Assembly (NCBI GenBank): GCA_000002445.1
Contig: CH464491.1
Coordinates: forward strand, 3,328,001 to 3,392,000
DNA: 64,000 bases
Reading direction: 5' to 3'
Origin: Trypanosoma brucei
Taxonomy: Eukaryota
Position 1 is the first letter of the stretch; each line of letters starts with the position of its first letter. This document shows, in pieces, positions 7,601 through 35,978 of the stretch. Below the pieces are notes generated by a model. The model made no database searches, had not been told where the DNA came from, and saw nothing but the letters and a program-made list of their open reading frames with translations. The translations under genes were made by a program, and so were the position numbers.

Positions 7601-7694
7601 GCAGCCGTCTTGGGGATTGCTTTTGAGCGTAATCAAAATTGGAGGTGCACATTTCTTTGAACCTGTGTCTTTTCCTTTAACTGTTAATAGCAAG

Positions 7695-8957
7695 ATGGAG
7701 GGTTTGTGTGGGTGGTGGTGCATCCTATTTGTCGTAACAATCTCTCAAGCTGGTGAAGCACAAGAAAAACCAATTAACCGGGACGAGTTCGAAGCCCTGT
7801 GCAGGTTTATAAATCTCGCGGGAGACAGTGAGACACCAACGAAGGTTGAGAAAAATGTCAAGCGAACAGTGAAGAAAATTCTAACCGAAAGTGGGGTGGC
7901 CGATAGCAGGAAAAAGGAACTCGAAGATCTGCAAAAGCAAGCAGAGAAGTATCGAGAGGAAAACATGTCATTTTGGGAAACAGTAGGGATGGGGGAGATA
8001 AATAGGAGCTTGACGGACGCACTCTACGGGGAGAACCACAACGCCGTTGTTAAAGCACAAGGGAGTAGAGACCCCATCTGCGGCGCCAGAGAGGCGGACG
8101 CGGGTACGGAGGCAGGAAAGTCACTGGTGATCGACTTATTTTGCCTATGTTCCACATCGCCAGAACTTCACAACTTTCAGCAGATTTGCTGCGCCGACTG
8201 TCGAGGTGGAGCAAACGACCACCCCTGGATTCCTTCGGAAGATGGGAACCAGAGATGGAAGTTCCTTGCGCAAAAATGTGGAGAAACTAATCAAGGTGGA
8301 AAGCTCTCAACAGACTCCATTGAGAAGTCAGCCGAATTCTTTTTGAAAACATTGAAAAATCCCTTAGACTCAAGAGCGGAGGCACGCCGCACAGTGCTAG
8401 GAAGCACCAACGGCGATGTTAGCATTAATTGCAACGGTTGGAAAACTTCGGGAAACGGACGGTGCGTCAAATACGATCCAAACCACTTAAATGATGGGAT
8501 CCTGTCAATACCATGGTACGTAAAATTGGCGAAGGCAGCGACCCGAATGGATAAATTAATGGAAGCTGAAAAAACGTTGCGTGAGATTCTGGAAAATGTG
8601 GAGAAGTTGGAACGAAAGCAAGTCGCAATACCACCCAAACCTGCTGACGAGGGTAATGCCGTCCCGAGCGTCTCAAAAGACGTCGTAGAAAACAACAATG
8701 AAAATTCCGGCGTAAGTAATAATCGTGAGAAAAGAGAAAGCAAAGGTGAACTCAACGAAGAGAAATCACCAGGGAGTGAAAAGTCGCCGGAGGAAGTCGA
8801 CTGTGACGGCTGTAAACCCGAAGAAGGGTGTGAGGAGGGAAAATGTGAAAGCGAAAATGGGAGACACGACTCTGAAGGCACAAAAAGGCCACCTGTAAAG
8901 AGCCATTCTGCAACAATAATCGGTGGTTCGTTGAAGTTTTTCTTGCTTTTGGGATAA
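7695..8957 (+). CDS. GPI-anchored surface glycoprotein, VSG/ESAG2-like architecture
   Basis: An N-terminal signal peptide (MEGLCGWWCILFVVTISQAGEA) starts at the ATG at 7695; the track start at 7617 is a TTG. The ~330-aa ectodomain contains paired cysteines (LFCLCSTS, CCADCRGG). A Cys-rich C-terminal region (CDGCKPEEGCEEGKCE) is followed by a serine and a 15-17-aa hydrophobic tail (ATIIGGSLKFFLLLG), the form expected for a trypanosome GPI-addition signal. Confidence 0.55.
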   Translation: MEGLCGWWCILFVVTISQAGEAQEKPINRDEFEALCRFINLAGDSETPTKVEKNVKRTVKKILTESGVADSRKKELEDLQKQAEKYREENMSFWETVGMGEINRSLTDALYGENHNAVVKAQGSRDPICGAREADAGTEAGKSLVIDLFCLCSTSPELHNFQQICCADCRGGANDHPWIPSEDGNQRWKFLAQKCGETNQGGKLSTDSIEKSAEFFLKTLKNPLDSRAEARRTVLGSTNGDVSINCNGWKTSGNGRCVKYDPNHLNDGILSIPWYVKLAKAATRMDKLMEAEKTLREILENVEKLERKQVAIPPKPADEGNAVPSVSKDVVENNNENSGVSNNREKRESKGELNEEKSPGSEKSPEEVDCDGCKPEEGCEEGKCESENGRHDSEGTKRPPVKSHSATIIGGSLKFFLLLG

Positions 8958-10579
8958 AGAGTTCTCCGTAAGCTTCAAAAGAATAAAAAGGTGGTGAAGG
9001 ACACAACTCCAGTCACACAAGCGTAAAAATATTAACCACTGTACCATTCCTGAGTTGTGTGATGGGAAATGAGTTCGCCAACCCAAAGTTTGGAACAAAA
9101 ATGGCCAACTATCGGGGAGGAGGGAGGCAGCGGGTACCACTGAACCATCTCCCTAGTCGCGGTGGTTCCCAGAATATTTTTTTGACGCGTAATGCGTAAG
9201 CCCTATATTATCACCGGAACTGAAAATTTGCTCGAAATATATTGATATTTTTGTTTTAAAGTGCAACGGAAACGAAACACGACAAGTACGTATTTTTATG
9301 AACGTCTAAAAGTTTATCAACTTCTCACATGCAAATTTACTCCCGAAAACAACTATATATAAAATGAAAGTAGTTGCAAATGCGCGAAGAATTTTCTTCT
9401 CCTGTCATCAATCACCGCCCCAAAGCGCCCGTTTAGTCCGTGGGAAAAGGGAGGAAACGTCCTTGCAAAAATAAAAAAACGCCGTGTTGAGACGGTATGA
9501 AATACAAGGGTGGAGAAAGGCCGCGTCCGTCCGCTAAACATCACCCGTTATTGCGGATTGCGTGTGACACTCTCAGGAAATGTTTTCGTGTCGGGAATGG
9601 GAACGCAGAACAACAACAGCACAGTTTCACAACCCCTGTCTTCTTTAAACGCCCGTATTATGTCAAAAAAAAAAAAAGACAGTACAACTGGAGCGCCGAT
9701 ACGCGTGACGTCGGGGGTAACTCTGTCTCTCTGTTTCGCGTAATCTTATCTTATTAGTGCCATCCGATCCGTGCCAGCAAGCCGCAACACTCATGTTGAT
9801 GGAATAACTCCGCCGCCGGCACACCGCCTTCTAAGAACCCGAAAAGGCGGTTTGGAAAATGGATGGTGGGAGGTTCCGCTCGAAGGTTATTTTATCAACA
9901 GCTGCAGCCCGGCAAACTTAACATGGCGTTGAATTAACGATAGCTGAGAAACTGCGCGACACTCTTCTCGAAACCAACGGACCGCTTCTTTCAGTCCCCT
10001 TCGTGTCATTTCATGAAACCCGTCTTGTCCAAATCCCCTCTCGGAATCTCACTGCTCTCCGTCGAAACAGATGGCGCGAAGCGATCAGAAGCCGGTGGTG
10101 GGATTCGGCCACACATCCGCCAAACCTGCCGATGTGATTCGAGTCTCGTTGGGAGGGGGAAGTCACATTATGCAGGTGGATTTGACCTTATATATCACAT
10201 TTTTCCTTCCCTTTCCTCACTGATGCTAGCACAGGGGGAACGTGGAGAGAAATGGGGAAATAATGGTGTGTACAAAGCTTATTTCCTTGCTTCAGACGAA
10301 GGTAGCGGGGGCCCGCGCAGAAGCTTACATGAAAGACGTCCCTGTCAGAACTGCTGGTGTTTCCAAAGGGAAGGAAAAGACAGACTAGTGAGGCACCCTC
10401 CGCCTGTAACGGCACAGTTTGGGAAATCTTAAAAAAAAACTCCCCCAGAGGGGGGAGGGGGAAGAAATATAGAGGGCCACACCCCCTGCCTCTGATACAA
10501 CATCGTTTCGTCATGACTCCTCCACATGTATGTGTTACACCTTTCATCAGCCTCACGGTGTTTCCGGCAGGGCGCATAT
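8958..10579. terminator. convergent strand-switch region where the plus-strand and minus-strand polycistronic units meet
   Basis: The last plus-strand gene ends at 8957 and the first minus-strand gene ends at 10580 (3' end to 3' end). No credible ORF lies between them. The stretch is AT-rich at 9180-9380 and contains a perfect 7-bp hairpin at 9824-9850. Confidence 0.5.
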
Positions 10580-12058
10580 TTACATCCGTGGGGAGGAGCC
10601 CAGAAGAATACGATCCATATTTATTGGTTTAACGAACTTGGGAGTAGGCGAACCCGTTTGAGCAGACGTCCCATTTGGATGGGGTCTGGGCGACCGACCT
10701 CTCAACAACTCAAACCCGGGCTTGCAGTTCGGCGACCTCGTACCTTGAAACTCTGGGGGCGACGATCCCAGCGATAGTTCGGTTGCGCGCCGGCGCAGGT
10801 TTCCAACCCCGTCCCGCAGCCCGGTACCTGTTTTCCTCAAACCTCCCACGCTACGCCCCTTTGAACCACAGTTGGTCAGGCTACCGGAAAGCGCGCTTGA
10901 CGTGTGTCTGCGGTTTCCAGGGGATTTACCCACTCCCAACGTGTTGGTTGCCCTCATTGCGGAAGTCCACGCCGGCCCCGTGGCGAGGGAGTTGTACCGC
11001 TCTCTTTTTGTTGCTGGTCGAGCTGGAGCGCTCCACCCACGGTTCCGAGATGCCACACGCCCTAATGGAGGGGACACTTGTCGGTAGGAGCTCCCGACAC
11101 CACTGGCAGCAGAAACACCGCGATACCCCATGGGGGCAGCGCTCTTCATACGAAGCATGCCAAACCGCTGCTGGACAGACGTCTGGCTACGACCGCCACC
11201 TCTGCGCGCATTCATTTCCGTTTCCATCATCTTTCGCTTTGCCTGATGCGCGGACGCGAGAGCATACAGCCTTTCCCACGGTCCGCTTCCATCTTGGCGC
11301 CGTGAGGCAGCAACACTACGTCTAACAACATTCCCCCGAGAAACTTTGGGTGCAGGGGGGGCGGTCGTGCTTCGTGGCTTGGCTGCGCGGCTCCACAAGC
11401 TGCGCTCGCGGTTCGTTGGCCTCGTTGAAAAGGAGTTTTTTGGTTTGTACAGTGCTGTTGGCATTCTCGGTTGTGACAAGGCTTTGCGCCGTGGGTTCCA
11501 AACAGGCCTACGAGGGGCGCTCTCCTTGAATGGCCCCTTGTTGTTACGATATTCCTCCAACTCCCGCCGAACGCGTTTCCATAAGTCCTCAAGGGACACA
11601 TCCTCCCGATCGTCCACATCTCCCCTTGCATTCTTGTTCAACAATCCCCTCGAAGGGGTGGCTCTATTTCCCACATTTCCGCGCGCCAGCAGCCGGTTAC
11701 GACCAGCTGCACCGCTATTCTTCCCCACGGCTGGCTTGTTACGTTTGACATCATGGGTGCGACTGCGCCCCAACCCACTTGCCATTTCAAAGAGCTCCTG
11801 TAATTTTTCGTGAGACTGTTGCAAAACTGAACTTTGATCCATCCCTCCGGACATGGCGGGTTCGTAGAATGGAGTCGCCGTGGGTAACTTCGCAATACTG
11901 CCGCCGTGAAGGAGGTCATGCCCTTGTTCCAACAATTCCTCCAAGCGCGCCATGGGCCCACCGAGTTCATTGAGGTCCCTTCCCTCAACCCGACCCGCCA
12001 CTTCAAGCGGGCGGCTACTGCCCGTGGACGGAGAAGTATCAAAGGAATCACCACACAT
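10580..12058 (-). CDS. hypothetical basic, low-complexity (R/S/G-rich) protein; paralog A
   Basis: The protein is 492 aa from the verified ATG at 12056-12058; the track start at 12073 is a GTG. The N-terminal ~175 aa are structured and carry motifs shared with the downstream gene at 14074-14526. The C-terminal ~300 aa are Arg/Ser/Gly-rich and predicted disordered. Confidence 0.5.
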   Translation of the reverse strand: MCGDSFDTSPSTGSSRPLEVAGRVEGRDLNELGGPMARLEELLEQGHDLLHGGSIAKLPTATPFYEPAMSGGMDQSSVLQQSHEKLQELFEMASGLGRSRTHDVKRNKPAVGKNSGAAGRNRLLARGNVGNRATPSRGLLNKNARGDVDDREDVSLEDLWKRVRRELEEYRNNKGPFKESAPRRPVWNPRRKALSQPRMPTALYKPKNSFSTRPTNRERSLWSRAAKPRSTTAPPAPKVSRGNVVRRSVAASRRQDGSGPWERLYALASAHQAKRKMMETEMNARRGGGRSQTSVQQRFGMLRMKSAAPMGYRGVSAASGVGSSYRQVSPPLGRVASRNRGWSAPARPATKRERYNSLATGPAWTSAMRATNTLGVGKSPGNRRHTSSALSGSLTNCGSKGRSVGGLRKTGTGLRDGVGNLRRRATELSLGSSPPEFQGTRSPNCKPGFELLRGRSPRPHPNGTSAQTGSPTPKFVKPINMDRILLGSSPRM

Positions 12059-14073
12059 GATGCCCCCCCCCACGTATATGCAGTCAACTAATTATAGGTA
12101 AATATACACAAACGAGAGTACACAGATGCGTGTTGCAAGTGCAATACACTCTTGATGAAGTCCACCTCCCAGCGTTACGCTACACGATTTCCTTTCTGTT
12201 TTTCCTTATCTTCTTTTTTCTTTTACTGTCCAGTCCTCGATTTCTCACTTTCCGCCAAATGTGCTCACGGAGCAACAGTGAGTTCCAAGGATCACGGAGG
12301 TAGACCACGAAAGGAAATATATATTTATATATATATATATATACGGCACCACTTAGGTGTTAATCTCCCGTACGCTTACTGAGACCACAAAACCGTGAGT
12401 TTCAACAGGTCCGACACACAACAAACCGAACAAAATTTTCTTTTCTATACTTTGCCGATAATTCTCTCCCGCGCCCTCTCGCTGCAGGAAAAGAAACTGC
12501 TGAGTGCCCCCTCACTTTACCTTTACACGTACGCACACTCAAACTTCAAATTCCGCCGAGCGTTTATTTTTGATGCTGCTTTGTGGGTGTGACAGGTAGG
12601 GTAAAGGGTACAAAACCTACGGCAACAGTAATGATAATAATAACAATAAATAACTGTGAAAATGACGAAACGAACGCAACAAAGGGGTTGAAGCACAGCA
12701 AGCACCAAGTCGAGGGCCCACTTGCTTCCAACTAATGCGGTGGTAAAAACAAAATATACGCTCCCTCTTTCCTTTCTCCCCGTCCCCGGCCTGGCACTTC
12801 AACCAGTCAATTATCTCTCTCCAATTCAATGGAACTCTCTACGTGCCCACCCTCGTTCGTCCCCTTTACGGGCCTGCGTGCAGCTTTCGTATCCGGTTGA
12901 ATTTTCGTGGACTCCAAACAGCAGGTCAAGTGTTCGTACCAAATATTCCCCTTATAATATATTTATATATTCCCTTTTTTCTTTTGTACACCGCTGACGG
13001 CGTTACTGGTGGATGGCAGGAAGAGCGAGTGGCACCGCCCCCTCACTGATTCCCCGCCGTTGCCTCTATGTTCTATTGCTTTTCCTCCCTTTATTTATCT
13101 TCTCTTGTTTTCTTTTGAATATGAAAATACCAATTACTCGTGATGCTACAGCCACTGTTAGGTGAAAGAAAGGTTTGCCCTTGCCTCCTTCTTTCCTCCT
13201 TCCTGTTCCCTTTTTTTCTTCTTTTTTTCCCCCTTCCTATAGGTGACAAGTTAATTTTTTTTTAAAAAAATAAGTAAATATGTAAACAATGCCTTCAACT
13301 TTTTGATTTGTTTGGTTCTTCTTTTTTTTTAAAAAAAAAAAAGATTAATCTTTGGAGGGGGTTAACCCGCTGAGGTGGTTGGAAAGGCAGCAAGAATTTG
13401 CACTCAAGGCCACAAGCGTAATGGGATCATGCAAATTCATGTGAACACTTAAATCGTCATAAAGGCAGTTGGGGGCCAAACAAAAACACGCAGGCACTTC
13501 TAGGCATGAATATATTTTAAATACATAAACACAAACACGCCATTAAAAATGGAATGCACACGAAACACACAATGCGGTTAACATTTTACAAGAGGAAACT
13601 GACGGGAAAAAAAAACGCAAATTGCACGTCACAAACCTGCAGCAGGGGCCGCACATTCTTAACACGATGGTTGCAAAATGCTCACACCTACATCAGGTAG
13701 TCATAATATGACTGCGGTGGTGAGGTCGCAGTTGAGGCCATATTATTTTTTAACACGCAACGTGGCAACGCTGCCCTCACACTTGTGCCGCAACTTGTGA
13801 AATAAGAGGAACACAAGAGATGGTAACAAAAAAAAAAAAACACTCAGCACTATAATCAAAAAAACGCACCAAACAAGCAGAAAAAAGAAAAATTATAAAA
13901 ATAAAGTAAACAACACAGCACGAAACGAAGTAGGAAGGTACATCTGCGTACATTACGAATTTTATGCACATACGGATATCGACCTGACGGTAAACATTAG
14001 TTCAATCCAAAACACAACCCTTAGAATTCCGATGGCATGTACCTTTATTGTAACCTCAGAAGCGAGGCGTATA

Positions 14074-14526
14074 TTAACCCGGTTTGTGGCAACAAGCGGC
14101 GAGACCGAAGCGGCAGTAATCATTCAACTCCGCTCGGATGCGGTTGCGCAAGGCGGTGAGCGAAATATCCATGCGGTCGTCCACAATATCAAAAGCTGCA
14201 TTCGAAGGCCTCCCCGCTTTGGGTTTGGGACCCGAAACCGCCGATGAGGTCGAGCGGTGACGACTACTTTTCCCCGATGTCGCACTAAACCCCTTTAATG
14301 AAGTGGTACCCGTTGGAGAAGGCGAGTTCCCGCCATTAAATCCACTAACTGAATTTGTTTCACCCCACGCAAGCCGCACCGACCGGTAACCGCAAAGGAG
14401 AGTCATTGATTCATTCAACAAATTCTCCACACGCTCCATAGAAGTGCGAATCCGATCAAACTCCGCCATGCACGGGGAGGGAAATGCCACCCGCAACGGA
14501 GTCCCGCCACCATGAAGGCAGCTCAT
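14074..14526 (-). CDS. hypothetical protein; truncated paralog B of the 10580-12058 gene
   Basis: The protein is 150 aa from the verified ATG at 14524-14526; the track start is a TTG. It shares two collinear motifs with paralog A: MERVENLLNESMTLL versus MARLEELLEQGHDLL, and DIVDDRMDISLTALRNRIRAELNDY versus GDVDDREDVSLEDLWKRVRRELEEY. A Ser-rich linker separates the motifs in both proteins. Confidence 0.4.
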   Translation of the reverse strand: MSCLHGGGTPLRVAFPSPCMAEFDRIRTSMERVENLLNESMTLLCGYRSVRLAWGETNSVSGFNGGNSPSPTGTTSLKGFSATSGKSSRHRSTSSAVSGPKPKAGRPSNAAFDIVDDRMDISLTALRNRIRAELNDYCRFGLAACCHKPG

Positions 14527-14640
14527 TGTGGAATTGCACACACTAAAACCAGACACAGCAACCTCAAGCAAAGTAAACAAAATTGAAATTGAGGAAGGAA
14601 AAAAAAAAAGAAGCTTGCAACTCCTTGCTTAAATGAGCCA

Positions 14641-14667
14641 CCACCACCACCACCACCACCACCTTCC
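14641..14667. repeat. (CCA)9 trinucleotide repeat in intergenic DNA
   Basis: Visible in the sequence. Confidence 0.9.
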
Positions 14668-15372
14668 AAACCCTAGAAGCTCCAGTCACACGAAGCGATG
14701 CCTTCACACGAGCCAATAAATATTCTATAGCGTATGAACAGACGAAACGGAGGAACTAAAACTAATAATAAAAATAAAAACAGAAACGCTCTTCCACAAG
14801 GGGAAATATCCCAACCCGGGGGGAAAAAAACGCTTCGGAGTGCTACTTGAGCCACGTCCCCGCCCCCTTCTTTCCTTCCCTTTGCCTTTTTAATTGGTTA
14901 TTTCCCCTTTCTTTCCCCCCCCCTTTTTTTTTTGAAAGATTGAAATTACTATTTGTATTAACCCTTGAAATCTACAGACGCCTGTCCGACAGAAAGAAAA
15001 AAAAAGATGATGGTTGGGGGAATGAAAAACTTTACAACAAACTTATAGTGAGTTTCACTGCCTTCTTTTTTTTATTATTATTTCCGGCACGCGCACTTCT
15101 TTGGTTTCGTTTTTATTTCGTTTTCCTTCCTTTTGTTTATAATTACGCGTCTTTGACGAGGTGCGTTTCAGTGGCAGCAACTTCCCTCTGCCACTGAAAC
15201 GCAGTACAGGCGCTGCTGAACTAATGCAAAAAAAAGAAAAAGAGCAAGCCTTGTAAATGAAGGAATACGAAATAAAACAAAACCAAAGAAGTGAAGCAGT
15301 TAGGAATCAGAAGGTAGCAAGACGGGATCCTGCAGAAGTGCTGGAAAGGAGTGGAATCACAAATAATAACAG

Positions 15373-15407
15373 CACACACACACACACACACACGGAGAGA
15401 GAGAGTA
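15373..15407. repeat. (CA)n followed by (GA)n compound microsatellite
   Basis: Visible in the sequence. Confidence 0.9.
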
Positions 15408-15893
15408 ATTTGTGGAAGGTAGAGAAAACAAAAAGAAAGCACCGCATAGCACAACCCTGGGTTCAGTGACGTCCTTGTCATGCAAGCAAACAAGAATATA
15501 TAAATAAGTATATGGTCGGTTACGGCACCTCGTAATTCATTCCCCACATCTTCACTTCTTTTTTATTTCCTCCCCTTCCATTTGATTCGGCTTTATTTGA
15601 CCAGCAGGAAGCACGTCTCTCTCTCTCTCACTCAACAACAGTTGGACATTCATTTTTTCTCTATGTGTTTTGCGCTCAAAAAAAAAACTCTATGTGCGCG
15701 CATGGGTTTCACCCGCCGCAAAATCCATCGTCGCTCCAGCAACAAGCATATGGGTGGGTGAGCATTTAAGCTCCACAGTGGTGCAGCATGCCCAAAAAAT
15801 TAAAAAAAAAACGACGAGAATGTTTTTAACCTAATGGAGAAATGTGCAGTAGAAACTAGACTCATATCATCGAACCAACATTCTGATGAAGCT

Positions 15894-16943
15894 TCACACA
15901 CGACACAAACCCGTATTTTCTTTTACGGTGTCGGTCCGCATGTGGCACTCGTTGTTGTAGCGGTGATGCAGCTCCTCCGCCTTTTTATGAACCTCCTCCA
16001 GAGACTCGTCAGCAGTCGTGTTCAAATTCCCCAGCACATAATACAGCGCCGGATCAATCATAAAGGCTTCAGAAGAAATTTTACCGCTTCCGAAGCTGCG
16101 GCAGTAGCGGTGGAATGCAAGAGATGTATAAAACCCTTTGGTACTGGGACACAACACCGCACTCTCAGAGTTGTCCCTCCTTGAATGTTCTGGTTGGCAA
16201 CGTAAATCGACCCTAGTGGAATCCCCACGACCGGAAAACATAAATTCCCGCACCCGCTGCCACTCATGTTGGCGCTCACATCGCTCATTCCATGCCGTAA
16301 CCCCGCGAAGGGTACCGCTACGAGTTAGATTCGCCACAAGGTTCATTTTCCAACTTTTAGAAGCAGCCGCTGCAGAGACTGCGTCGGGTACATTACCGCT
16401 CGGAACTACGGCGTCATATCGCCTGGGCACGCTGTCAAACCCCACCAATGATCTATCATCTCCAATATCCTCCTCTTTTCCCGCAAGGCTGCGGGTGGCC
16501 CGGCTGCGACGACGCGAAACCGATTTTCCCGATGCGCTGGACTGCAACCGTCGCAGTGCCCCAAGTCTGGTAGGGGCACGCTCCAAAGCTATGCGACTCT
16601 CCCATTCATCATCTGTTGCCCTCAAAAGCGCCTCCGTCCCAACGTCTTCCACATTAGTTAACCGCGCCAGCCTCTGAATCACAGCAGTTTTGCCATAACC
16701 AGACAATGGACTCACAGCGGGCTCATGATTATATGAGTGTGTGGAATCGTGCGCACGCTCATGTTGTTGCTGCCGATGCCTGCGCAGCAATTGCATGGCA
16801 AGCGAGCTCGCCTCCCCACACATGCCGCCACTCAGTGAAACAGCGGATTGCATTGATGACAATTGTGAAGGGCCCTCGGTAACGGTGGTATTGGCCCAAT
16901 GGCGACGCAGTACCCGACGGTAAACACAGCAGGTGCGTCTCAT
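15894..16943 (-). CDS. hypothetical protein (~349 aa; start uncertain)
   Basis: The long minus-strand ORF's first ATG is at 16941-16943; the track start is a TTG. A poly(T) tract lies immediately upstream on the coding strand, so the true start may be a downstream Met (MQSAVS... or MCGEAS...). The protein contains a GYGKT P-loop-like motif. Confidence 0.4.
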   Translation of the reverse strand: MRRTCCVYRRVLRRHWANTTVTEGPSQLSSMQSAVSLSGGMCGEASSLAMQLLRRHRQQQHERAHDSTHSYNHEPAVSPLSGYGKTAVIQRLARLTNVEDVGTEALLRATDDEWESRIALERAPTRLGALRRLQSSASGKSVSRRRSRATRSLAGKEEDIGDDRSLVGFDSVPRRYDAVVPSGNVPDAVSAAAASKSWKMNLVANLTRSGTLRGVTAWNERCERQHEWQRVREFMFSGRGDSTRVDLRCQPEHSRRDNSESAVLCPSTKGFYTSLAFHRYCRSFGSGKISSEAFMIDPALYYVLGNLNTTADESLEEVHKKAEELHHRYNNECHMRTDTVKENTGLCRV

Positions 16944-17259
16944 CAAAAAAAAAAAATAGTGAGGGGAGTCTGTTGATGGAGAGAAGAGCAAAAACAAACA
17001 AGAAAAAAAGGTAACAGAAATAAAAGTAACAGGAAAATCGACTGACAGAGAGCATCAGAGTAACCTGCAGACGAAAACGCGGGAAGACCGCTGCACGTGG
17101 TAGCAGAGAAGGGGGCGCGATCTTTACTCCCGACATGAACTGAAAGAACCTTCGTATCTGTGCCTGCATGAACCCGTTGCAATAAAATGATGCATACAGA
17201 CACAGTTCGTGGATGCGACGTGTGCCTTCACGTACGGGGGAGAACCCATTTCCCAAAGC

Positions 17260-27346: not shown

Positions 27347-28150
27347 CTAGAAATCTGCGTCCAGAGAGAAAACCTTTGACGACCTTTCGGAACTCATCAC
27401 ACCAGCCTTCTGATACTCACCAACCTTCTTCTCGAAAAAGTTAGTTTTCCCCTGAAGAGAAATCATATCCATGAAGTCAAATGGGTTCTTCGAGTTGTAA
27501 TGACGGTCGTACCCCAAGGACACCAGGAGCCGATCGGCGACAAACTCAATGTACTGAGTCATCAGCTGAGAATTCATTCCAATTAAGCGGACAGGTAATG
27601 CATCGCAAATGAACTCTCGTTCAATTGATACTGCATTGCATATAATTTCAAGCACACGATCCCTCGGCAGCTTGTTTACGATATACTTCTCGTATAATAG
27701 GCAAGCAAAGTCAGTGTGCAGACCCTCATCACGTGAAATCAGCTCGTGCTGAAGGTGAGCCCGGGCATCAAGCCACGCTTCTTTAGCCAAAAAATGGNNN
27801 NNNNNNNNNNNNNNNNNNNNNNNNNNNNNNNNNNNNNNNNNNNNNNNNNNNNNNNNNNNNNNNNNNNNNNNNNNNNNNNNNNNNNNNNNNNNNNNNNCGC
27901 TTGCCGCGAAGAAAGCCAACACATGTTTGATGAAGTGTCGCTCGCCGTCGTCCAGCTTCTCCCAATCCGTCATGTCATTCCCAAGGTCGATTTCCTCCAC
28001 CGTCCAGATACTGCTCTCCGCCTCCTTGTACTTCTGCCATATGTCAGGGTACTTGATAGGGAAGATAACGTAGCGGTCGGGGTTTTCTGTCAGAAGTGGC
28101 TCCTCCACCTCCCCTTCCTTACGCGAGCGCTTGTGAGATTTGGGTGGCAT
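27347..28150 (-). CDS. RNR2: ribonucleoside-diphosphate reductase small chain (R2), copy 1 (interrupted by assembly gap)
   Basis: The sequence matches the other copies on both sides of the 100-N gap at 27798-27897. The missing segment is longer than 100 bp, so the locus was collapsed or scaffolded here. Intactness cannot be judged. Confidence 0.6.
27798..27897. other. assembly gap (100 N) inside the RNR2 array
   Basis: The run of N is visible in the sequence. Confidence 0.99.
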
Positions 28151-28952
28151 CGTTAGCACTGTCCTTGTTTTTCTTCTCTTGATGTGTTTTCAATATACGA
28201 CAGAGCAGCTAATGGAATGAATGAAGAGAAAGCTTGCACACAAGAGGCATATTGAGTAGTGAAGTAGCGAAACAGTGGAAAGAAGTGGACATCCCAACCA
28301 ACGCGCACAATACATTGCCATCGTGTAACTATCAGCACAAAAAGGGTAGTCGCAATAATTGCAACCGTCCCTCCACTATGGCATTACCAAATGGAAAAAC
28401 TAAAACAAGTCAAAGGGAAAAACAATGGGAACCTGACAGGTACAAAAGTGCAAAATGGTATGCCTCTTACACATTTCCCTTTCACCACCCTCACACATAG
28501 AAACTGTCATCAAGCATAGCGTGTAAATATTTGTCAGGTGAGGGCACTCTAAGCACTAATATTGAAACCAATTGTCCACCAAAGGTAAAAAGACAAGAAG
28601 AAAGGCATCTACTAAAGCGGACACATTCTCTCCCATCTATATCTATTTACATAGGTATATATCTATTTCCGGATTTACCCACGTTCGTACTTCCGTACGC
28701 ACGCAGGTTCTCGTGTATGCCTATGTACGATTCTATGTGTTTGCATGCAGGCGTATGGAGGCATACGTGCTGCTGCCCACAAGCTCATTTCCTTGTTATG
28801 ATATTTGTTAAAAACAACAGCCAGTACTCCAAGGAGGTGCAGTCGCTGACCTTACCAGAGTAACAGATATCTAACTCAATGAAAGTAAAGGGCATCAGCC
28901 CCATACTTTACAGTTCCCCTCACATACGGGCACGCACCAACGATAACATCCC

Positions 28953-29966
28953 CTAGAAATCTGCGTCCAGAGAGAAAACCTTTGACGACCTTTCGGAACT
29001 CATCACACCAGCCTTCTGATACTCACCAACCTTCTTCTCGAAAAAGTTAGTTTTCCCCTGAAGAGAAATCATATCCATGAAGTCAAATGGGTTCTTCGAG
29101 TTGCAATGACGGTCGTACCCCAAGGACACCAGGAGCCGATCGGCGACAAACTCAATGTACTGAGTCATCAGCTGAGAATTCATTCCAATTAAGCGGACAG
29201 GTAATGCATCGCAAATGAACTCTCGCTCAATTGATACTGCATTGCATATAATTTCAAGCACACGATCCCTCGGCAGCTTGTTTACGATATACTTCTCGTA
29301 TAATAGGCAAGCAAAGTCAGTGTGCAGACCCTCATCACGTGAAATCAGCTCGTTGCTGAAGGTGAGCCCGGGCATCAAGCCACGCTTCTTTAACCAAAAA
29401 ATGGCGCAGAACGAGCCAGAGAAAAATATGCCTTCGACAGCCGCAAACGCGACGAGCCGCGTAGGGAACGAAGTCTGACTGCCAATCCATTCAATCGCCC
29501 ATTTGGCCTTTTTCTCAATACACGGAATCGTCCTTATGGCATGTAGCAGTCGTTGCTTTTCGTCGGGATCCACAACATACGTATCGATCAACACGGAGTA
29601 TGTCTCACAATGGATATTTTCCATAGCAATCTGGAACCCATAGAAACATCGAACTTCAGGTACCTGCACTTCGCACATGAACCGTTCCGCAAGGTTCTCC
29701 AGCACAATGCCATCGCTTGCCGCGAAGAAAGCCAACACATGTTTGATGAAGTGTCGCTCGCCGTCGTCCAGCTTCTCCCAATCTGTCATGTCATTCCCAA
29801 GGTCGATTTCCTCCACCGTCCAGATGCTGCTCTCCGCCTCCTTGTACTTCTGCCATATGTCAGGGTACTTGATAGGGAAGATAACGTAGCGGTCGGGGTT
29901 TTCTGTCAGAAGTGGCTCCTCCACCTCCCCTTCCTTACGCGAGCGCTTGTGAGATTTGGGTGGCAT
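28953..29966 (-). CDS. RNR2: ribonucleoside-diphosphate reductase small chain (R2), copy 2
   Basis: The protein is 337 aa from the verified ATG at 29964-29966; the track start is a GTG. It is collinear with mammalian R2 as I remember it: [33 protein letters not shown] (the di-iron ligands Glu/His and the radical Tyr), [64 protein letters not shown], and the C-terminal LDADF. Copy-specific residues are HCETYS and DRHCNS. Confidence 0.9.
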
Positions 29967-30743
29967 CGTTAGCACTGTCCTTGTTTCTCTTCTCTTGATG
30001 TGTTTTCAATATACGACAGAGCAGCTAATGGAATGAATGAAGAGAAAGCTTGCACACAAGAGGCATATTGAGTAGTGAAGTAGCGAAACAGTGGAAAGAA
30101 GTGGACATCCCAACCAACGCGCACAATACATTGCCATCGTGTAACTATCAGCACAAAAAGGGTAGTCGCAATAATTGCAACCGTCCCTCCACTATGGCAT
30201 TACGAAATGGAAAAACTAAAACAAGTCAAAGGGAAAAACAATGGGAACCTGACAGGTGCAAAAGTGCAAAATGGTATGCCTCTTACACATTTCCCTTTCA
30301 CCACCCTCACACATAGAAACTGCCATCAAGCATAGCGTGTAAATATTTGTCAGGTGAGGGCACTCTAAGCACTAATATTGAAATCAATTGTCCACCAAAG
30401 GTAAAAAGAAAAAAATACACCCGATAAACAAGTGTCTTACTCCAGACATTAAAATCATCAAATGATATTAGCTATCTCACATGTAACAAGCGCACAGGTT
30501 CTCGTGTATGCCTATGTACGATTCTATGTGTTTGCATGCAGGCGTATGGAGGCATACGTGCTGCTGCCCACAAGCTCATTTCCTTGTTATGATATCTGTT
30601 AAAAACAACAGCCAGTACTCCAAGGAGGTGCAGTCGCTGACCTTACCAGAGTAACAGATATCTAACTCAATGAAAGTAAAGGGCATCAGCCCCATACTTC
30701 ACAGTTCCCCTTACATACGGGCACGCACCAACGATAACATCCC

Positions 30744-31757
30744 CTAGAAATCTGCGTCCAGAGAGAAAACCTTTGACGACCTTTCGGAACTCATCACACC
30801 AGCCTTCTGATACTCACCAACCTTCTTCTCGAAAAAGTTAGTTTTCCCCTGAAGAGAAATCATATCCATGAAGTCAAATGGGTTCTTCGAGTTGTAATGA
30901 CGGTCGTACCCCAAGGACACCAGGAGCCGATCGGCGACAAACTCAATGTACTGAGTCATCAGCTGAGAATTCATTCCAATTAAGCGGACAGGTAATGCAT
31001 CGCAAATGAACTCTCGCTCAATTGATACTGCATTGCATATAATTTCAAGCACACGATCCCTCGGCAGCTTGTTTACGATATACTTCTCGTATAATAGGCA
31101 AGCAAAGTCAGTGTGCAGACCCTCATCACGTGAAATCAGCTCGTTGCTGAAGGTGAGCCCGGGCATCAAGCCACGCTTCTTTAACCAAAAAATGGCGCAG
31201 AACGAGCCAGAGAAAAATATGCCTTCGACAGCCGCAAACGCGACGAGCCGCGTAGGGAACGAAGTCTGACTGCCAATCCATTCAATCGCCCATTTGGCCT
31301 TTTTCTCAATACACGGAATCGTCCTTATGGCATGTAGCAGTCGTTGCTTTTCGTCGGGATCCACAACATACGTATCGATCAACACGGAGTATGTCTCAGA
31401 ATGGATATTTTCCATAGCAATCTGGAACCCATAGAAACATCGAACTTCAGGTACCTGCACTTCGCACATGAACCGTTCCGCAAGGTTCTCCAGCACAATG
31501 CCATCGCTTGCCGCGAAGAAAGCCAACACATGTTTGATGAAGTGTCGCTCGCCGTCGTCCAGCTTCTCCCAATCTGTCATGTCATTCCCAAGGTCGATTT
31601 CCTCCACCGTCCAGATGCTGCTCTCCGCCTCCTTGTACTTCTGCCATATGTCAGGGTACTTGATAGGGAAGATAACGTAGCGGTCGGGGTTTTCTGTCAG
31701 AAGTGGCTCCTCCACCTCCCCTTCCTTACGCGAGCGCTTGTGAGATTTGGGTGGCAT
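30744..31757 (-). CDS. RNR2: ribonucleoside-diphosphate reductase small chain (R2), copy 3
   Basis: Same as copy 2, with the consensus residues HSETYS and DRHYNS. Confidence 0.9.
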
Positions 31758-32559
31758 CGTTAGCACTGTCCTTGTTTTTCTTCTCTTGATGTGTTTTCAA
31801 TATACGACAGAGCAGCTAATGGAATGAATGAAGAGAAAGCTTGCACACAAGAGGCATATTGAGTAGTGAAGTAGCGAAACAGTGGAAAGAAGTGGACATC
31901 CCAACCAACGCGCACAATACATTGCCATCGTGTAACTATCAGCACAAAAAGGGTAGTCGCAATAATTGCAACCGTCCCTCCACTATGGCATTACCAAATG
32001 GAAAAACTAAAACAAGTCAAAGGGAAAAACAATGGGAACCTGACAGGTACAAAAGTGCAAAATGGTATGCCTCTTACACATTTCCCTTTCACCACCCTCA
32101 CACATAGAAACTGTCATCAAGCATAGCGTGTAAATATTTGTCAGGTGAGGGCACTCTAAGCACTAATATTGAAACCAATTGTCCACCAAAGGTAGAAAGA
32201 CAAGAAGAAAGGCATCTACTAAAGCGGACACATTCTCTCCCATCTATATCTATTTACATAGGTGTATATCTATTTCCGGATTTACCCACGTTCGTACTTC
32301 CGTACGCACGCAGGTTCTCGTGTATGCCTATGTACGATTCTATGTGTTTGCATGCAGGCGTATGGAGGCATACGTGCTGCTGCCCACAAGCTCATTTCCT
32401 TGTTATGATATTTGTTAAAAACAACAGCCAGTACTCCAAGGAGGTGCAGTCGCTGACCTTACCAGAGTAACAGATATCTAACTCAATGAAAGTAAAGGGC
32501 ATCAGCCCCATACTTTACAGTTCCCCTCACATACGGGCACGCACCAACGATAACATCCC

Positions 32560-33573
32560 CTAGAAATCTGCGTCCAGAGAGAAAACCTTTGACGACCTTT
32601 CGGAACTCATCACACCAGCCTTCTGATACTCACCAACCTTCTTCTCGAAAAAGTTAGTTTTCCCCTGAAGAGAAATCATATCCATGAAGTCAAATGGGTT
32701 CTTCGAGTTGTAATGACGGTCGTACCCCAAGGACACCAGGAGCCGATCGGCGACAAACTCAATGTACTGAGTCATCAGCTGAGAATTCATTCCAATTAAG
32801 CGGACAGGTAATGCATCGCAAATGAACTCTCGCTCAATTAATACTGCATTGCATATAATTTCAAGCACACGATCCCTCGGCAGCTTGTTTACGATATACT
32901 TCTCGTATAATAGGCAAGCAAAGTCAGTGTGCAGACCCTCATCACGTGAAATCAGCTCGTTGCTGAAGGTGAGCCCGGGCATCAAGCCACGCTTCTTTAA
33001 CCAAAAAATGGCGCAGAACGAGCCAGAGAAAAATATGCCTTCGACAGCCGCAAACGCGACGAGCCGCGTAGGGAACGAAGTCTGACTGCCAATCCATTCA
33101 ATCGCCCATTTGGCCTTTTTCTCAATACACGGAATCGTCCTTATGGCATGTAGCAGTCGTTGCTTTTCGTCGGGATCCACAACATACGTATCGATCAACA
33201 CGGAGTATGTCTCAGAATGGATATTTTCCATAGCAATCTGGAACCCATAGAAACATCGAACTTCAGGTACCTGCACTTCGCACATGAACCGTTCCGCAAG
33301 GTTCTCCAGCACAATGCCATCGCTTGCCGCGAAGAAAGCCAACACATGTTTGATGAAGTGTCGCTCGCCGTCGTCCAGCTTCTCCCAATCTGTCATGTCA
33401 TTCCCAAGGTCGATTTCCTCCACCGTCCAGATGCTGCTCTCCGCCTCCTTGTACTTCTGCCATATGTCAGGGTACTTGATAGGGAAGATAACGTAGCGGT
33501 CGGGGTTTTCTGTCAGAAGTGGCTCCTCCACCTCCCCTTCCTTACGCGAGCGCTTGTGAGATTTGGGTGGCAT
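32560..33573 (-). CDS. RNR2: ribonucleoside-diphosphate reductase small chain (R2), copy 4
   Basis: Same as copy 3 except for NAVLIEREF (Ser to Leu). Confidence 0.9.
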
Positions 33574-34372
33574 CGTTAGCACTGTCCTTGTTTCTCTTCT
33601 CTTGATGTGTTTTCAATATACGACAGAGCAGCTAATGGAATGAATGAAGAGAAAGCTTGCACACAAGAGGCATATTGAGTAGTGAAGTAGCGAAACAGTG
33701 GAAAGAAGTGGACATCCCAACCAACGCGCACAATACATTGCCATCGTGTAACTATCAGCACAAAAAGGGTAGTCGCAATAATTGCAACCGTCCCTCCACT
33801 ATGGCATTACGAAATGGAAAAACTAAAACAAGTCAAAGGGAAAAACAATGGGAACCTGACAGGTGCAAAAGTGCAAAATGGTATGCCTCTTACACATTTC
33901 CCTTTCACCACCCTCACACATAGAAACTGCCATCAAGCATAGCGTGTAAATATTTGTCAGGTGAGGGCACTCTAAGCACTAATATTGAAATCAATTGTCC
34001 ACCAAAGGTAAAAAGACAAGAAAGGCATTTACTAAAGCGGACACATTCTCTCCCATCTATATCTATTTACATAGGTGTATATCTATTTCCGGATTTACCC
34101 ACGTTCGTACTTCCGTACGCACGCAGGTTCTCGTGTATGCCTATGTACGATTCTATGTGTTTGCATGCAGGCGTATGGAGGCATACGTGCTGCTGCCCAC
34201 AAGCTCATTTCCTTGTTATGATATCTGTTAAAAACAACAGCCAGTACTCCAAGGAGGTGCAGTCGCTGACCTTACCAGAGTAACAGATATCTAACTCAAT
34301 GAAAGTAAAGGGCATCAGCCCCATACTTCACAGTTCCCCTTACATACGGGCACGCACCAACGATAACATCCC

Positions 34373-35386
34373 CTAGAAATCTGCGTCCAGAGAGAAAACC
34401 TTTGACGACCTTTCGGAACTCATCACACCAGCCTTCTGATACTCACCAACCTTCTTCTCGAAAAAGTTAGTTTTCCCCTGAAGAGAAATCATATCCATGA
34501 AGTCAAATGGGTTCTTCGAGTTGTAATGACGGTCGTACCCCAAGGACACCAGGAGCCGATCGGCGACAAACTCAATGTACTGAGTCATCAGCTGAGAATT
34601 CATTCCAATTAAGCGGACAGGTAATGCATCGCAAATGAACTCTCGCTCAATTGATACTGCATTGCATATAATTTCAAGCACACGATCCCTCGGCAGCTTG
34701 TTTACGATATACTTCTCGTATAATAGGCAAGCAAAGTCAGTGTGCAGACCCTCATCACGTGAAATCAGCTCGTTGCTGAAGGTGAGCCCGGGCATCAAGC
34801 CACGCTTCTTTAACCAAAAAATGGCGCAGAACGAGCCAGAGAAAAATATGCCTTCGACAGCCGCAAACGCGACGAGCCGCGTAGGGAACGAAGTCTGACT
34901 GCCAATCCATTCAATCGCCCATTTGGCCTTTTTCTCAATACACGGAATCGTCCTTATGGCATGTAGCAGTCGTTGCTTTTCGTCGGGATCCACAACATAC
35001 GTATCGATCAACACGGAGTATGTCTCAGAATGGATATTTTCCATAGCAATCTGGAACCCATAGAAACATCGAACTTCAGGTACCTGCACTTCGCACATGA
35101 ACCGTTGCACAAAGTTCTCCAGCACAATGCCATCCCTTGCCGCGAAGAAAGCCAACACATGTTTGATGAAGTGTCGCTCGCCGTCGTCCAGCTTCTCCCA
35201 ATCTGTCATGTCATTCCCAAGATAAATGTTTTCCATCGCCCAGAAGTTGGAACGTGCCTTCTTGTACTTCTGCCATATGTCAGGGTACTTGATAGGGAAG
35301 ATAACGTAGCGGTCGGGGTTTTCTGTCAGAAGTGGCTCCTCCACCTCCCCTTCCTTACGCGAGCGCTTGTGAGATTTGGGTGGCAT
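34373..35386 (-). CDS. RNR2: ribonucleoside-diphosphate reductase small chain (R2), copy 5 (upstream edge copy, divergent N-terminal region)
   Basis: The ORF is full length. Within the first ~110 codons it carries clustered differences ([16 protein letters not shown] versus [16 protein letters not shown], and [16 protein letters not shown] versus [16 protein letters not shown]). The rest is identical to the other copies. Confidence 0.8.
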
Positions 35387-35978
35387 CGTTAGCACTGTCC
35401 TTGTTTCTCTTCTCTTGATGTGTTTTCAATATACGACAGAGCAGCTAATGGAATGAATGAAGAGAAAGCTTGCACACAAGAGGCATATTGCTTTCTAAGT
35501 GCTGTTATCACATTTGACAATCCTGTCTAAAAAACATTACTGTTTCTGTTTTTTGCTTCTTTAAAGTTAATTGTTCGTAGAGGTTCTAGGTAAGGTCGAT
35601 AGTTGCTCTTGGGGAAAGCGCGTTGGCAACAGCAACGAAAAAAAAAACTCATGTTGTCCACTTTACCGAGTGGAAAGGTCGCAACAGATCCATGCAACAA
35701 ACTGTAGCATTAACTCACATTAGTGGAGAGCCGCAGCGCTTCATGCACTGGGGAGAAGGCAAACTAGTGTAGCTGCCCCAACATCTACTGAATATGTATT
35801 ACTGTTTGCTTTACCACTGTGAAGTCTGACCATCTTCCAGCAGATATCAGTAGACCGTAATGCCATGAAGACATCGACTAGCACACGTTTCGTTGGAACC
35901 TCATCAGCGCGACACTCATGGAGGAGGAACAAGCCAACTCGCGCAAACTCAAAGAATAGGGACCTGTGAAGAGTTGGC

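What the first reader, a model, noticed from the sequence alone, without database searches (positions are those of the whole stretch)
10580..14526. Adjacent paralogous genes sharing two collinear motifs, suggesting local duplication with one copy truncated
The 492-aa gene and the 150-aa gene 2 kb upstream in the same unit share two collinear motifs. Motif 1 is R(L/V)E(E/N)LL(E/N)(Q/E)..(D/T)LL, at about 11909-11953 and about 14400-14440. Motif 2 is D(V/I)VDDR.D(V/I)SL..L...(V/I)R.EL(E/N)(E/D)Y, at about 11549-11623 and about 14116-14193.

A Ser-rich linker separates the motifs in both proteins.

I do not recognise the family. The larger copy has a long Arg/Ser/Gly-rich disordered tail reminiscent of RNA-binding regulators.

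The ~2 kb between the two genes is ORF-free.
Basis: seen in the sequence. Interest (0 to 1): 0.5.

Follow-up and report, generated by a model that had tools for sequence, protein, structure and literature searches.

The report
Ancient long/short paralog pair in trypanosomes
Two neighbouring Trypanosoma brucei genes of unknown function are true relatives from an old tandem duplication: they share a two-helix module, the 150-residue gene is a conserved, expressed short version of the 492-residue one, and its database label "T. brucei-specific" is wrong.

Summary
The window is T. brucei TREU927 chromosome 11. The genes are Tb927.11.12720 (A, 492 aa, 10580-12058, minus strand) and Tb927.11.12730 (B, 150 aa, 14074-14526, minus strand).

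- **Similarity:** both motifs lie at the stated coordinates. Motif 2 is significant pairwise (BLASTP E=2e-6; 0 of 2000 shuffles). Motif 1 is weak pairwise but clear between profiles (hhalign E=6e-16).
- **Cross-check:** HMMs built only from other species find each gene reciprocally (E~1e-12).
- **Age:** a short and a long gene sit in the same order and synteny in T. vivax, T. theileri and T. melophagium. T. congolense shows the short gene in that synteny, with its long gene on another contig. The duplication is therefore old, and B is neither brucei-specific nor decaying (module dN/dS 0.20).
- **Structure:** the family matches no Pfam or PDB entry. AlphaFold predicts short helices in otherwise disordered chains. 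A adds a very basic tail (pI 11.5).
- **Published screens:** N-terminally tagged B localises to the posterior cell tip in a cell-cycle-dependent way. A carries Ser-Pro phosphosites that rise through the cell cycle.

My inferred reading: the shared module docks or dimerises, A's tail is the phospho-regulated effector, and B is a module-only partner or competitor. Moderate interest.

The parts
10580..12058 (-). Gene A, the long paralog (492 aa plus stop). It is Tb927.11.12720 / Tb11.01.4570 (old-style ID inferred from gene order) / UniProt Q382Q9, annotated 'hypothetical protein, conserved'.
   Evidence: Exact match to XP_829334.1. The Tb927.11.12720 to Q382Q9 link comes. The translation was checked.
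11900..11980 (-). A motif 1 (residues 27-53), helix 1 of the shared module.
   Evidence: AF2 helix 33-51, 10-residue block mean pLDDT 70-81. Conserved in all 11 family members. hhalign E=5.9e-16.
11777..11824 (-). A helix 79-94 (EKLQELFEMAS), shared only with the T. congolense and T. vivax long forms.
   Evidence: AF2 and the alignment.
11540..11620 (-). A motif 2 (residues 147-173): an acidic patch followed by helix 2 of the shared module.
   Evidence: BLASTP E=2e-6 against B. AF2 helix 156-172, pLDDT 82-91.
11198..11287 (-). A motif 3 (PWERLYALA... helix, residues 258-287), present in long forms only.
   Evidence: AF2 helix 260-287, 10-residue block mean pLDDT 61-95, peaking at 90-95 over residues 261-280. 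W261, L264 and A268 are invariant in 5 long forms.
10691..10924 (-). The part of A's basic disordered tail that carries the Ser-Pro phosphosites S379, S432, S442 and S456.
   Evidence: Benz & Urbaniak 2019 supplementary tables. The tail has net charge +49 and pI 12.
10601..10636 (-). A C-terminal motif FVKPINMDRILL, of the form [VI]x[RKT]P[IL][DN][LM]xx[IL], present in long forms only.
   Evidence: Conserved at the C-terminus of the T. vivax, T. theileri, T. melophagium and unidentified-species long forms.
12059..14073 (-). A 2.0-kb non-coding spacer, presumably B's 3'UTR, the intergenic region and A's 5'UTR.
   Evidence: No ATG ORF longer than 75 aa; GC 42%. No Rfam match. Spacers of 2.1-2.5 kb lie between the pair in T. 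vivax, T. theileri and T. melophagium.
14074..14526 (-). Gene B, the short paralog (150 aa plus stop). It is Tb927.11.12730 / Tb11.01.4580 / UniProt Q382Q8, annotated 'T. brucei spp.-specific protein'.
   Evidence: Exact match to XP_829335.1. The ID mapping and the TrypTag tagging primers match this ORF.
14386..14466 (-). B motif 1 (residues 21-47), helix 1.
   Evidence: AF2 helix 20-45, pLDDT 82-89. Domain i-E 4e-7 against the non-brucei family HMM.
14107..14190 (-). B motif 2 (residues 113-140), helix 2. It is followed by a short Cys-rich tail.
   Evidence: AF2 helix 123-140, pLDDT about 90. Domain i-E 2e-10.

Best explanation
**Shown.**

- A and B are true paralogs made by a tandem duplication. 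It predates the split between the salivarian trypanosomes (T. brucei, T. congolense, T. vivax) and the T. theileri/T. melophagium lineage.
- They define a small, uncharacterised family that has so far been found only in trypanosomatids, and among named species only in Trypanosoma.
- The family signature is a bipartite N-terminal module. Amphipathic helix 1 reads [ST][MIL]xR[MILV][EQ]xx[LF]xxxxx[LI][LI]. A disordered linker of about 65-140 residues follows. Then comes an acidic patch and amphipathic helix 2, [DE][VIT][SP][LIV]xxLxxR[IV][RH]xELxx[YF].
- Long forms add a WERLY helix, a strongly basic disordered tail and a C-terminal P[IL][DN][LM] motif.
- Short forms end 8-20 residues after helix 2 in every species.
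- B is a maintained, expressed gene.

**Inferred.**

- The two-helix module is a protein-protein docking or dimerisation device. It targets the proteins to a cell-cycle-controlled structure at the posterior cell tip, where the plus ends of the subpellicular microtubules lie.
- A's basic tail is the effector. It would bind an acidic polymer, most likely microtubules or alternatively RNA. Multi-site Ser-Pro phosphorylation, which rises from G1 to G2/M, would weaken that binding.
- B carries only the module. It would act as a partner or competitor of A at the same docking site, by heterodimerising with A or occupying the site.
For: **Paralogy**
- BLASTP E=2e-6 and 0 of 2000 shuffles reaching the observed score.
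- An exhaustive HMMER search of 1.84 billion proteins found only 7 representatives, all carrying both motifs.
- hhalign of the long against the short profile gave E=5.9e-16.
- HMMs built without brucei sequences hit B at 9.9e-13 (long profile) and A at 9.5e-13 (short profile). The next best window ORF scored E>0.1.

**Age and synteny**
- T. congolense: UBR, CPSF30, the 339-aa gene, then a 153-aa short form.
- T. vivax: CPSF30, the 323-aa gene, a 136-aa short form, then a 542-aa long form.
- T. theileri: CPSF30, the 355-aa gene, a 224-aa short form, then a 529-aa long form.
- T. melophagium shows the same order.
- The window itself has the same order.

**Selection**
- T. theileri against T. melophagium gives dN/dS of 0.44 for the short gene, split into 0.20 for the module and 0.66 for the linker. 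The long gene gives 0.33.

**Structure and charge**
- AlphaFold predicts confident helices exactly at the motifs, with the rest disordered.
- A has pI 11.5 and its tail carries net +49.

**Expression and function hints**
- Ribosome profiling lists Tb927.11.12730 with higher translational efficiency in bloodstream forms.
- Tb927.11.12720 is detected by mass spectrometry in procyclic forms and classed as a cell-cycle-regulated protein.
- Its sites pS379, pS432, pS442 and pS456 all precede Pro and all rise across the cell cycle. pS442 falls in cluster Phos-02, which also holds CYC6 and CRK3 sites.
- The TrypTag paper places EB1, XMAP215 and many kinesins at the posterior tip.
Against: - Nothing here tests the function.
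- A's own localisation was not retrievable, because the stored TrypTag table is cut.
- No interaction between A and B, or between helix 1 and helix 2, was tested. The pTM values are low (0.22-0.26), so the models say nothing about how the helices pack.
- C-terminal tagging of B gave only a faint, background-like signal.
- No conserved SxIP, KEN, D-box or RVxF motif is present.
- The posterior tip also hosts RNA-decay, membrane-trafficking and APC/C proteins, so a microtubule link is only one option.
- Within the module, the T. theileri short form is closer to its own long form (54%) than to the salivarian short forms (37-48%). That leaves room for gene conversion or repeated duplication.
Confidence: 0.6

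Rival explanations
1. The polarity is reversed. The ancestor was a short, module-only protein, and the long form arose after duplication by gaining the C-terminal WERLY helix, basic tail and C-terminal motif. In that case B was never truncated.
For: Short forms keep the canonical motif 2 (DDREDIS...) at least as well as long forms do, and better than the long form in T. theileri. No outgroup with a single copy was recovered.
Against: The one member from an unidentified GC-rich trypanosomatid is a long form. Losing a tail through a premature stop is a simpler event than gaining three conserved elements.
Confidence: 0.25
2. A and B belong to the RNA-decay or RNA-granule machinery that also concentrates at the posterior pole alongside XRNA and ALPH1. 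On this view A's Arg/Ser/Gly-rich tail binds RNA.
For: The tail is very basic and disordered. RNA-catabolism proteins have a posterior-tip focus. Cell-cycle-regulated phosphosites are enriched on RNA-binding proteins in the same dataset.
Against: No RNA-binding domain was found in any member. A has only one RGG. The gene IDs do not appear in the main text of any tethering or mRNP paper in the searchable library. B's annotation names only the cell tip, with no cytoplasmic granules.
Confidence: 0.15
3. B is a recent, T. brucei-specific truncated duplicate or a decaying pseudogene, as its database label 'T. brucei spp.-specific protein' suggests.
For: The annotation in NCBI and UniProt. B is short, and the word-index search found only Trypanozoon copies.
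Against: Syntenic short orthologs exist in T. congolense, T. vivax, T. theileri and T. melophagium. The module is under purifying selection. A and B share no DNA-level similarity. There is evidence of protein localisation and translation.
Confidence: 0.02
4. The shared motifs are chance or compositional similarity between two low-complexity, helix-prone sequences.
For: Motif 1 alone is not significant pairwise, with 73 of 2000 shuffles reaching its score. Both proteins are Ser/Arg/Gly-rich.
Against: Both motifs are collinear, conserved in 11 sequences from at least 6 species, and found reciprocally by independent profiles.
Confidence: 0.01

Closest known systems
MicroProteins / small interfering peptides (for example Id proteins versus bHLH factors, and LITTLE ZIPPER versus HD-ZIPIII)
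   Same: A small paralog derives from the same gene family as a larger protein. It keeps only a helical, probably protein-protein interaction module and lacks the effector region.
   Different: No A-B interaction or inhibitory effect has been shown. The module is not a known dimerisation domain. The pair is an old tandem duplicate kept in synteny, and the small copy has a localisation of its own.
Basic, Ser/Pro-rich disordered microtubule-associated and plus-end-tracking proteins regulated by CDK/MAPK phosphorylation (SxIP +TIPs; tau/MAP-like and PRC1/NuSAP-like tails)
   Same: A has a strongly basic disordered tail with several Ser-Pro sites whose phosphorylation rises towards mitosis. Its paralog localises where microtubule plus ends, EB1 and XMAP215 sit.
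   Different: There is no conserved SxIP or other EB1-binding motif. There is no homology to any MAP family. Microtubule binding is untested.
Pfam CENP-Q (PF13094) and SNARE-motif helices (PDB 9zbe Nyv1)
   Same: These are the only weak sequence matches: amphipathic helical segments.
   Different: The matches are far below threshold. CENP-Q scores E=0.16 and 12.5 bits against a cut-off of 28.5, in only 1 of 5 members. Nyv1 scores E=0.3. I treat both as chance.

Membership tests
The A/B family itself (an unnamed Trypanosoma two-helix-module family) | Motif 1 helix and motif 2 acidic patch plus helix, collinear and separated by a disordered linker | tested here: met
   Both A and B meet it, as do 9 further sequences from T. 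congolense, T. vivax, T. theileri, T. melophagium and an unidentified species.
The A/B family itself | Syntenic position downstream of CPSF30 and the Tb927.11.12740 ortholog, with the short gene upstream of the long gene | tested here: met
   See, plus window gene order. The T. congolense contig ends before the position of the long gene.
'T. brucei spp.-specific protein' (the database label of B) | No ortholog outside the T. brucei group | tested here: not met
   Short syntenic orthologs exist in T. congolense (153 aa), T. vivax (136 aa), T. theileri (224 aa) and T. melophagium (224 aa).
MicroProtein-type regulator | Small protein related to a larger protein and retaining only one interaction module | tested here: met
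   B aligns to the first ~175 residues of A. Every short form ends 8-20 residues after helix 2.
MicroProtein-type regulator | Physically binds the larger relative, or its partner, and modulates its activity | not testable with these tools
   No multimer prediction or interaction data were available.
SxIP-type plus-end-tracking proteins | Conserved [ST]x[IL]P motif in a basic Ser/Pro-rich region | tested here: not met
   A and B have none. Isolated, non-homologous matches occur in two orthologs only.
RNA-binding proteins (RRM, CCCH, PUF, RGG-box) | A recognisable RNA-binding domain or repeated RGG | tested here: not met
   No Pfam domain in any long member or in B. A has a single RGG, read directly from the sequence.
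CENP-Q (PF13094) | Score above the Pfam gathering threshold | tested here: not met
   12.5 bits against a cut-off of 28.5, in 1 of 5 members.

The most novel reading that the evidence does not exclude
B is a microProtein-like regulator. Through the shared two-helix module it heterodimerises with A, or competes for A's docking site at the posterior microtubule plus-end region. In this way it tunes a CDK/MAPK-controlled function of A in posterior-end remodelling or cytokinesis. B's roughly 8-fold higher translational efficiency in bloodstream forms would give stage-specific control. That would make this a trypanosome-specific, duplication-born regulator/effector pair kept together across the genus.
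Probability: 0.2. Interest if true: 0.6.

Novelty: new member of a known kind. Interest (0 to 1): 0.4.

Why it matters
- **Annotation.** It corrects a database label: Tb927.11.12730 is not T. brucei-specific. It also links two "hypothetical" genes into one defined family with clear sequence signatures.
- **A testable idea.** A 150-residue protein with an unexplained, cell-cycle-dependent posterior-tip localisation now has a reading that can be tested. It is the module-only paralog of a cell-cycle-phosphorylated basic protein encoded next door.
- **Relevance to trypanosome biology.** The TrypTag authors describe the posterior cell tip as unexpectedly complex and poorly understood. A conserved effector plus short-paralog pair offers a tractable entry point.
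- **Limits.** The result interests trypanosome cell biologists and is not a general surprise. Tandem duplicates with a shortened copy are common.

Tried and rejected
**Searches that found no homology**
- Pfam on A, B and all long members gave only a sub-threshold CENP-Q hit.
- A PDB sequence-profile search gave only chance helical hits with E>=0.3.
- Foldseek of the B model against PDB gave no match.
- The AlphaFold database library was not available. It might have revealed T. cruzi or Leishmania orthologs.

**Searches limited by the tools**
- The word-index protein searches found almost nothing: only Trypanozoon, T. theileri and T. melophagium copies. The exhaustive HMMER search was what opened up the family.
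- A metagenome scan could not be run, because the alignment has no stretch conserved enough.
- The T. theileri long form could not be included in the structure-prediction alignment.

**DNA-level and RNA checks**
- A direct-repeat search between the two genes and their flanks found nothing beyond low-complexity matches, so the duplication is not recent.
- Rfam on 8900-15900 found nothing.
- tRNA and bacterial promoter/terminator scans are irrelevant here.

**Linear motifs**
- SxIP, KEN, D-box, RVxF and full CDK consensus motifs are not conserved.

**Literature**
- The supplements of Jensen 2014 and Briggs 2023 did not contain either ID in the stored text.
- The stored TrypTag table is cut before Tb927.11.12720.

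**Artefacts and dead ends**
- The 56-aa 'cluster mates' P0019 and P0021, and their metagenome scaffold L010, are unrelated clustering artefacts.
- A spliced-leader search in the Logan contigs was negative, so I could not tell whether they are RNA or DNA, nor identify the species of P0014.
Full report
**Identity of the locus.** The window is Trypanosoma brucei brucei TREU927 chromosome 11.
- The 492-aa ORF (10580-12058, minus strand) is identical to XP_829334.1 / UniProt Q382Q9, 'hypothetical protein, conserved'.
- The 150-aa ORF (14074-14526, minus strand) is identical to XP_829335.1 / Q382Q8, Tb11.01.4580, 'T. brucei spp.-specific protein'.
- The TrypTag supplementary table equates Tb11.01.4580 with Tb927.11.12730, and its tagging primers match this ORF.
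- A phosphoproteomics table equates Tb927.11.12720 with Q382Q9.
- Upstream on the same strand lie Tb927.11.12740 / Tb11.01.4590, a mitochondrial tRNA-import component, CPSF30 / Tb11.01.4600, a UBR-type E3 ligase and a tandem array of ribonucleotide reductase R2 genes.
- A is the last gene before a convergent strand-switch region.

**Checking the observation.** All four motif positions are correct to within a few bases.
- Motif 2 is significant on its own: BLASTP E=2e-6 with 16/29 identities. The local alignment score is 75 against 37.4 +/- 5.7 for shuffled B, with 0 of 2000 shuffles reaching it.
- Motif 1 alone is not significant pairwise: 73 of 2000 shuffles reach its score.
- The two genes and their flanks share no DNA-level repeat, so any duplication is old.

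**The family.** Word-index searches returned almost nothing. An exhaustive HMMER search of 1.84 billion representative proteins, using an A+B profile, returned exactly seven proteins. Every one carries both motifs in the same order. Names came from exact look-ups:
- T. congolense: 529 aa (long) and 153 aa (short);
- T. vivax: 542 aa, or 943 aa in strain Y486 (long);
- T. theileri and T. melophagium: 224 aa (short);
- a 424/427-aa long form from an unidentified GC-rich trypanosomatid, seen only in Logan assemblies.

Profile comparison of five long forms against four short forms aligns motif 1 with probability 98.6% and E=5.9e-16. As an independent cross-check, I built HMMs from non-brucei sequences only and searched all 664 stop-to-stop ORFs of the window.
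- The long-form profile finds B at E=9.9e-13, with both motifs as separate domains.
- The short-form profile finds A at E=9.5e-13.
- Nothing else scores better than E=0.1.

Paralogy is therefore established, and the window holds no third member.

**Age of the duplication.** Genomic context settles this.
- T. congolense: UBR, CPSF30, a 339-aa gene, then the 153-aa short form, after which the contig ends.
- T. vivax: CPSF30, a 323-aa gene, a 136-aa ORF, then the 542-aa long form. The 136-aa ORF carries both motifs...VSMERMEGLLRRSFAILYG... and ...DDCQQISLEELRRRIRAELDAYC....
- T. theileri and T. melophagium: CPSF30, a 355/361-aa gene, the 224-aa short form, then a 529/540-aa long form with motif 1, a degenerate motif 2, the WERLY helix and the C-terminal motif.

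The short-upstream, long-downstream pair was therefore already present in the common ancestor of the Salivaria and the T. theileri group. The label 'T. brucei spp.-specific' is wrong.

One caveat remains. Over the 54 module columns, the T. theileri short form is 54% identical to its own long form but only 37-48% identical to the salivarian short forms. Gene conversion or repeated duplication cannot be excluded from so few columns. Synteny favours a single event.

**Is the short gene functional?**
- It is an intact ORF ending 8-20 residues after helix 2 in all five species.
- Between T. theileri and T. melophagium its dN/dS is 0.44 overall: 0.20 in the module and 0.66 in the linker. The long gene gives 0.33, at a dS of about 0.57.
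[quoted passage not shown] C-terminal tagging gave only a faint, background-like signal.
- Ribosome profiling lists Tb927.11.12730 among genes with significantly higher translational efficiency in bloodstream forms, with log2 values of 3.0 and 2.7.

None of them is met.

**Anatomy.** AlphaFold2 with the family alignment predicts the following.
- B has two confident helices (20-45 and 123-140, pLDDT 82-90) joined by a disordered linker of about 75 residues.
- A has helices at 33-51 (motif 1), 79-94, 156-172 (motif 2) and 260-287 (motif 3, PWERLYALA..., block mean pLDDT 61-95, peaking at 90-95). Everything else is disordered.

Both module helices are amphipathic, with heptad-like spacing of the conserved hydrophobic residues; this is read directly from the alignments. 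Five columns are invariant across the nine aligned members: one Arg and one Leu in helix 1, and Leu, Arg, Glu-Leu in helix 2.

Long forms share two further islands: the WERLY helix and a C-terminal [VI]x[RKT]P[IL][DN][LM]xx[IL] motif. A has pI 11.5, and its tail (residues 175-492) has net charge +49.

No Pfam family, PDB sequence or PDB fold matches.

**Functional hints for A.** In the cell-cycle proteome and phosphoproteome of procyclic forms (Benz & Urbaniak 2019, PMC6907760):
- Tb927.11.12720 is detected with 4 peptides.
- It is listed among the 443 cell-cycle-regulated proteins (maximum change 1.56-fold, cluster Prot-10).
- It carries at least six quantified phosphosites in the tail. I recovered four of them: pS379, pS432, pS442 and pS456.
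- Those four precede Pro and rise from early G1 towards G2/M, with log2 ranges up to about 2.3.
- pS442 is in cluster Phos-02, which contains CYC6 and CRK3 sites and is enriched for CDK motifs.

**Most likely mechanism.** The steps shown are paralogy, ancient tandem origin, the module architecture, purifying selection, expression, B's posterior-tip localisation, and A's cell-cycle phosphorylation.

The rest is inferred.
- The two-helix module is a docking or dimerisation device.
- A's basic tail binds an acidic polymer. Microtubules are the most likely candidate, given that EB1, XMAP215 and kinesins define the posterior tip. RNA is the alternative.
- Ser-Pro phosphorylation would tune that binding.
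- B, having only the module, would act as a partner or competitor.

The closest concept is the microProtein or Id-type short paralog. The closest mechanistic analogues for A are basic, phospho-regulated MAPs. Membership of any such family is not supported: there is no SxIP motif and no homology.

**Polarity.** Whether B is a truncated copy or A an extended one cannot be decided without single-copy outgroups. I could not reach T. cruzi or Leishmania with the tools available.

**Verdict.** The finding adds a defined but uncharacterised Trypanosoma family, corrects an annotation and offers a testable hypothesis. It is of moderate, specialist interest.

Noticed in passing
window 12059-14073; L014 7513-10000; L009 10676-12817; L015 10676-12885: The non-coding spacer between the short and long genes is long in four species checked: about 2.0 kb in T. 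brucei, 2.5 kb in T. vivax and 2.1-2.2 kb in T. theileri and T. melophagium. Neighbouring genes of the same unit are only about 0.3-0.9 kb apart. This suggests a long regulatory 3'UTR for the short gene, or a long 5'UTR for the long one. No Rfam match was found.
   Followed up: partly
window 14074-14115 (B C-terminus); L008 6270-6311; L014 7450-7512: Salivarian short forms end in Cys-containing tails: Tb ...YCRFGLAACCHKPG, Tco ...GLARC, Tv ...YCHACHADG.... Salivarian long forms start with Met-Cys. These could be acylation or metal-binding sites, and might explain why C-terminal tagging of B abolished the specific signal.
   Followed up: no
window 27347-35395: A tandem array of five ribonucleotide reductase small-subunit (R2) genes on the minus strand, about 1.8 kb apart. 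The copy at 27347-28159 is interrupted by a run of N (an assembly gap). The copy at 34373-35395 has a diverged N-terminal stretch.
   Followed up: no
window 7617-8957 (+) and 8958-10579: A VSG_B-domain gene (Pfam E=8e-46) with a signal peptide and a GPI-like C-terminus is the last plus-strand gene. It faces gene A across a roughly 1.6-kb convergent strand-switch region that contains no tRNA gene.
   Followed up: partly
window 12330-12350, about 12960-12975, 13322-13345, 14640-14670: Several simple repeats occur here. The (TA)n tracts differ in length between the window and the Logan contigs (compare). A T12/A9 homopolymer junction is where all Logan contigs for A start and where the contig for B ends. 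A (GGT)8 microsatellite lies just upstream of B.
   Followed up: partly
P0017 (T. vivax Y486 long form, 943 aa) and P0011 (T. congolense long form): The T. vivax Y486 protein has about seven tandem copies of TPSTAPSKVAPEPERLRR, plus further KTPLSARG-type repeats, inserted in the basic tail. The T. congolense IL3000 protein ends abruptly at ...KFVV, where the others continue with the C-terminal motif. That is probably an assembly or annotation truncation.
   Followed up: no
window 15894-16997 (-): The upstream neighbour, Tb927.11.12740 (mitochondrial tRNA-import component), is reported to undergo DRBD3-controlled alternative trans-splicing at an internal site, producing a truncated protein (PMC12592628).
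   Followed up: no
window 39600-51509 (-): A very large ORF (3969 aa), together with further large ORFs downstream. I did not examine them.
   Followed up: no
L010 (ENA metagenome scaffold), P0019/P0021: Two 56-aa proteins are grouped in the same 90% cluster as the unidentified-species long form, yet share no visible similarity with it. This looks like a clustering artefact in the protein collection.
   Followed up: yes
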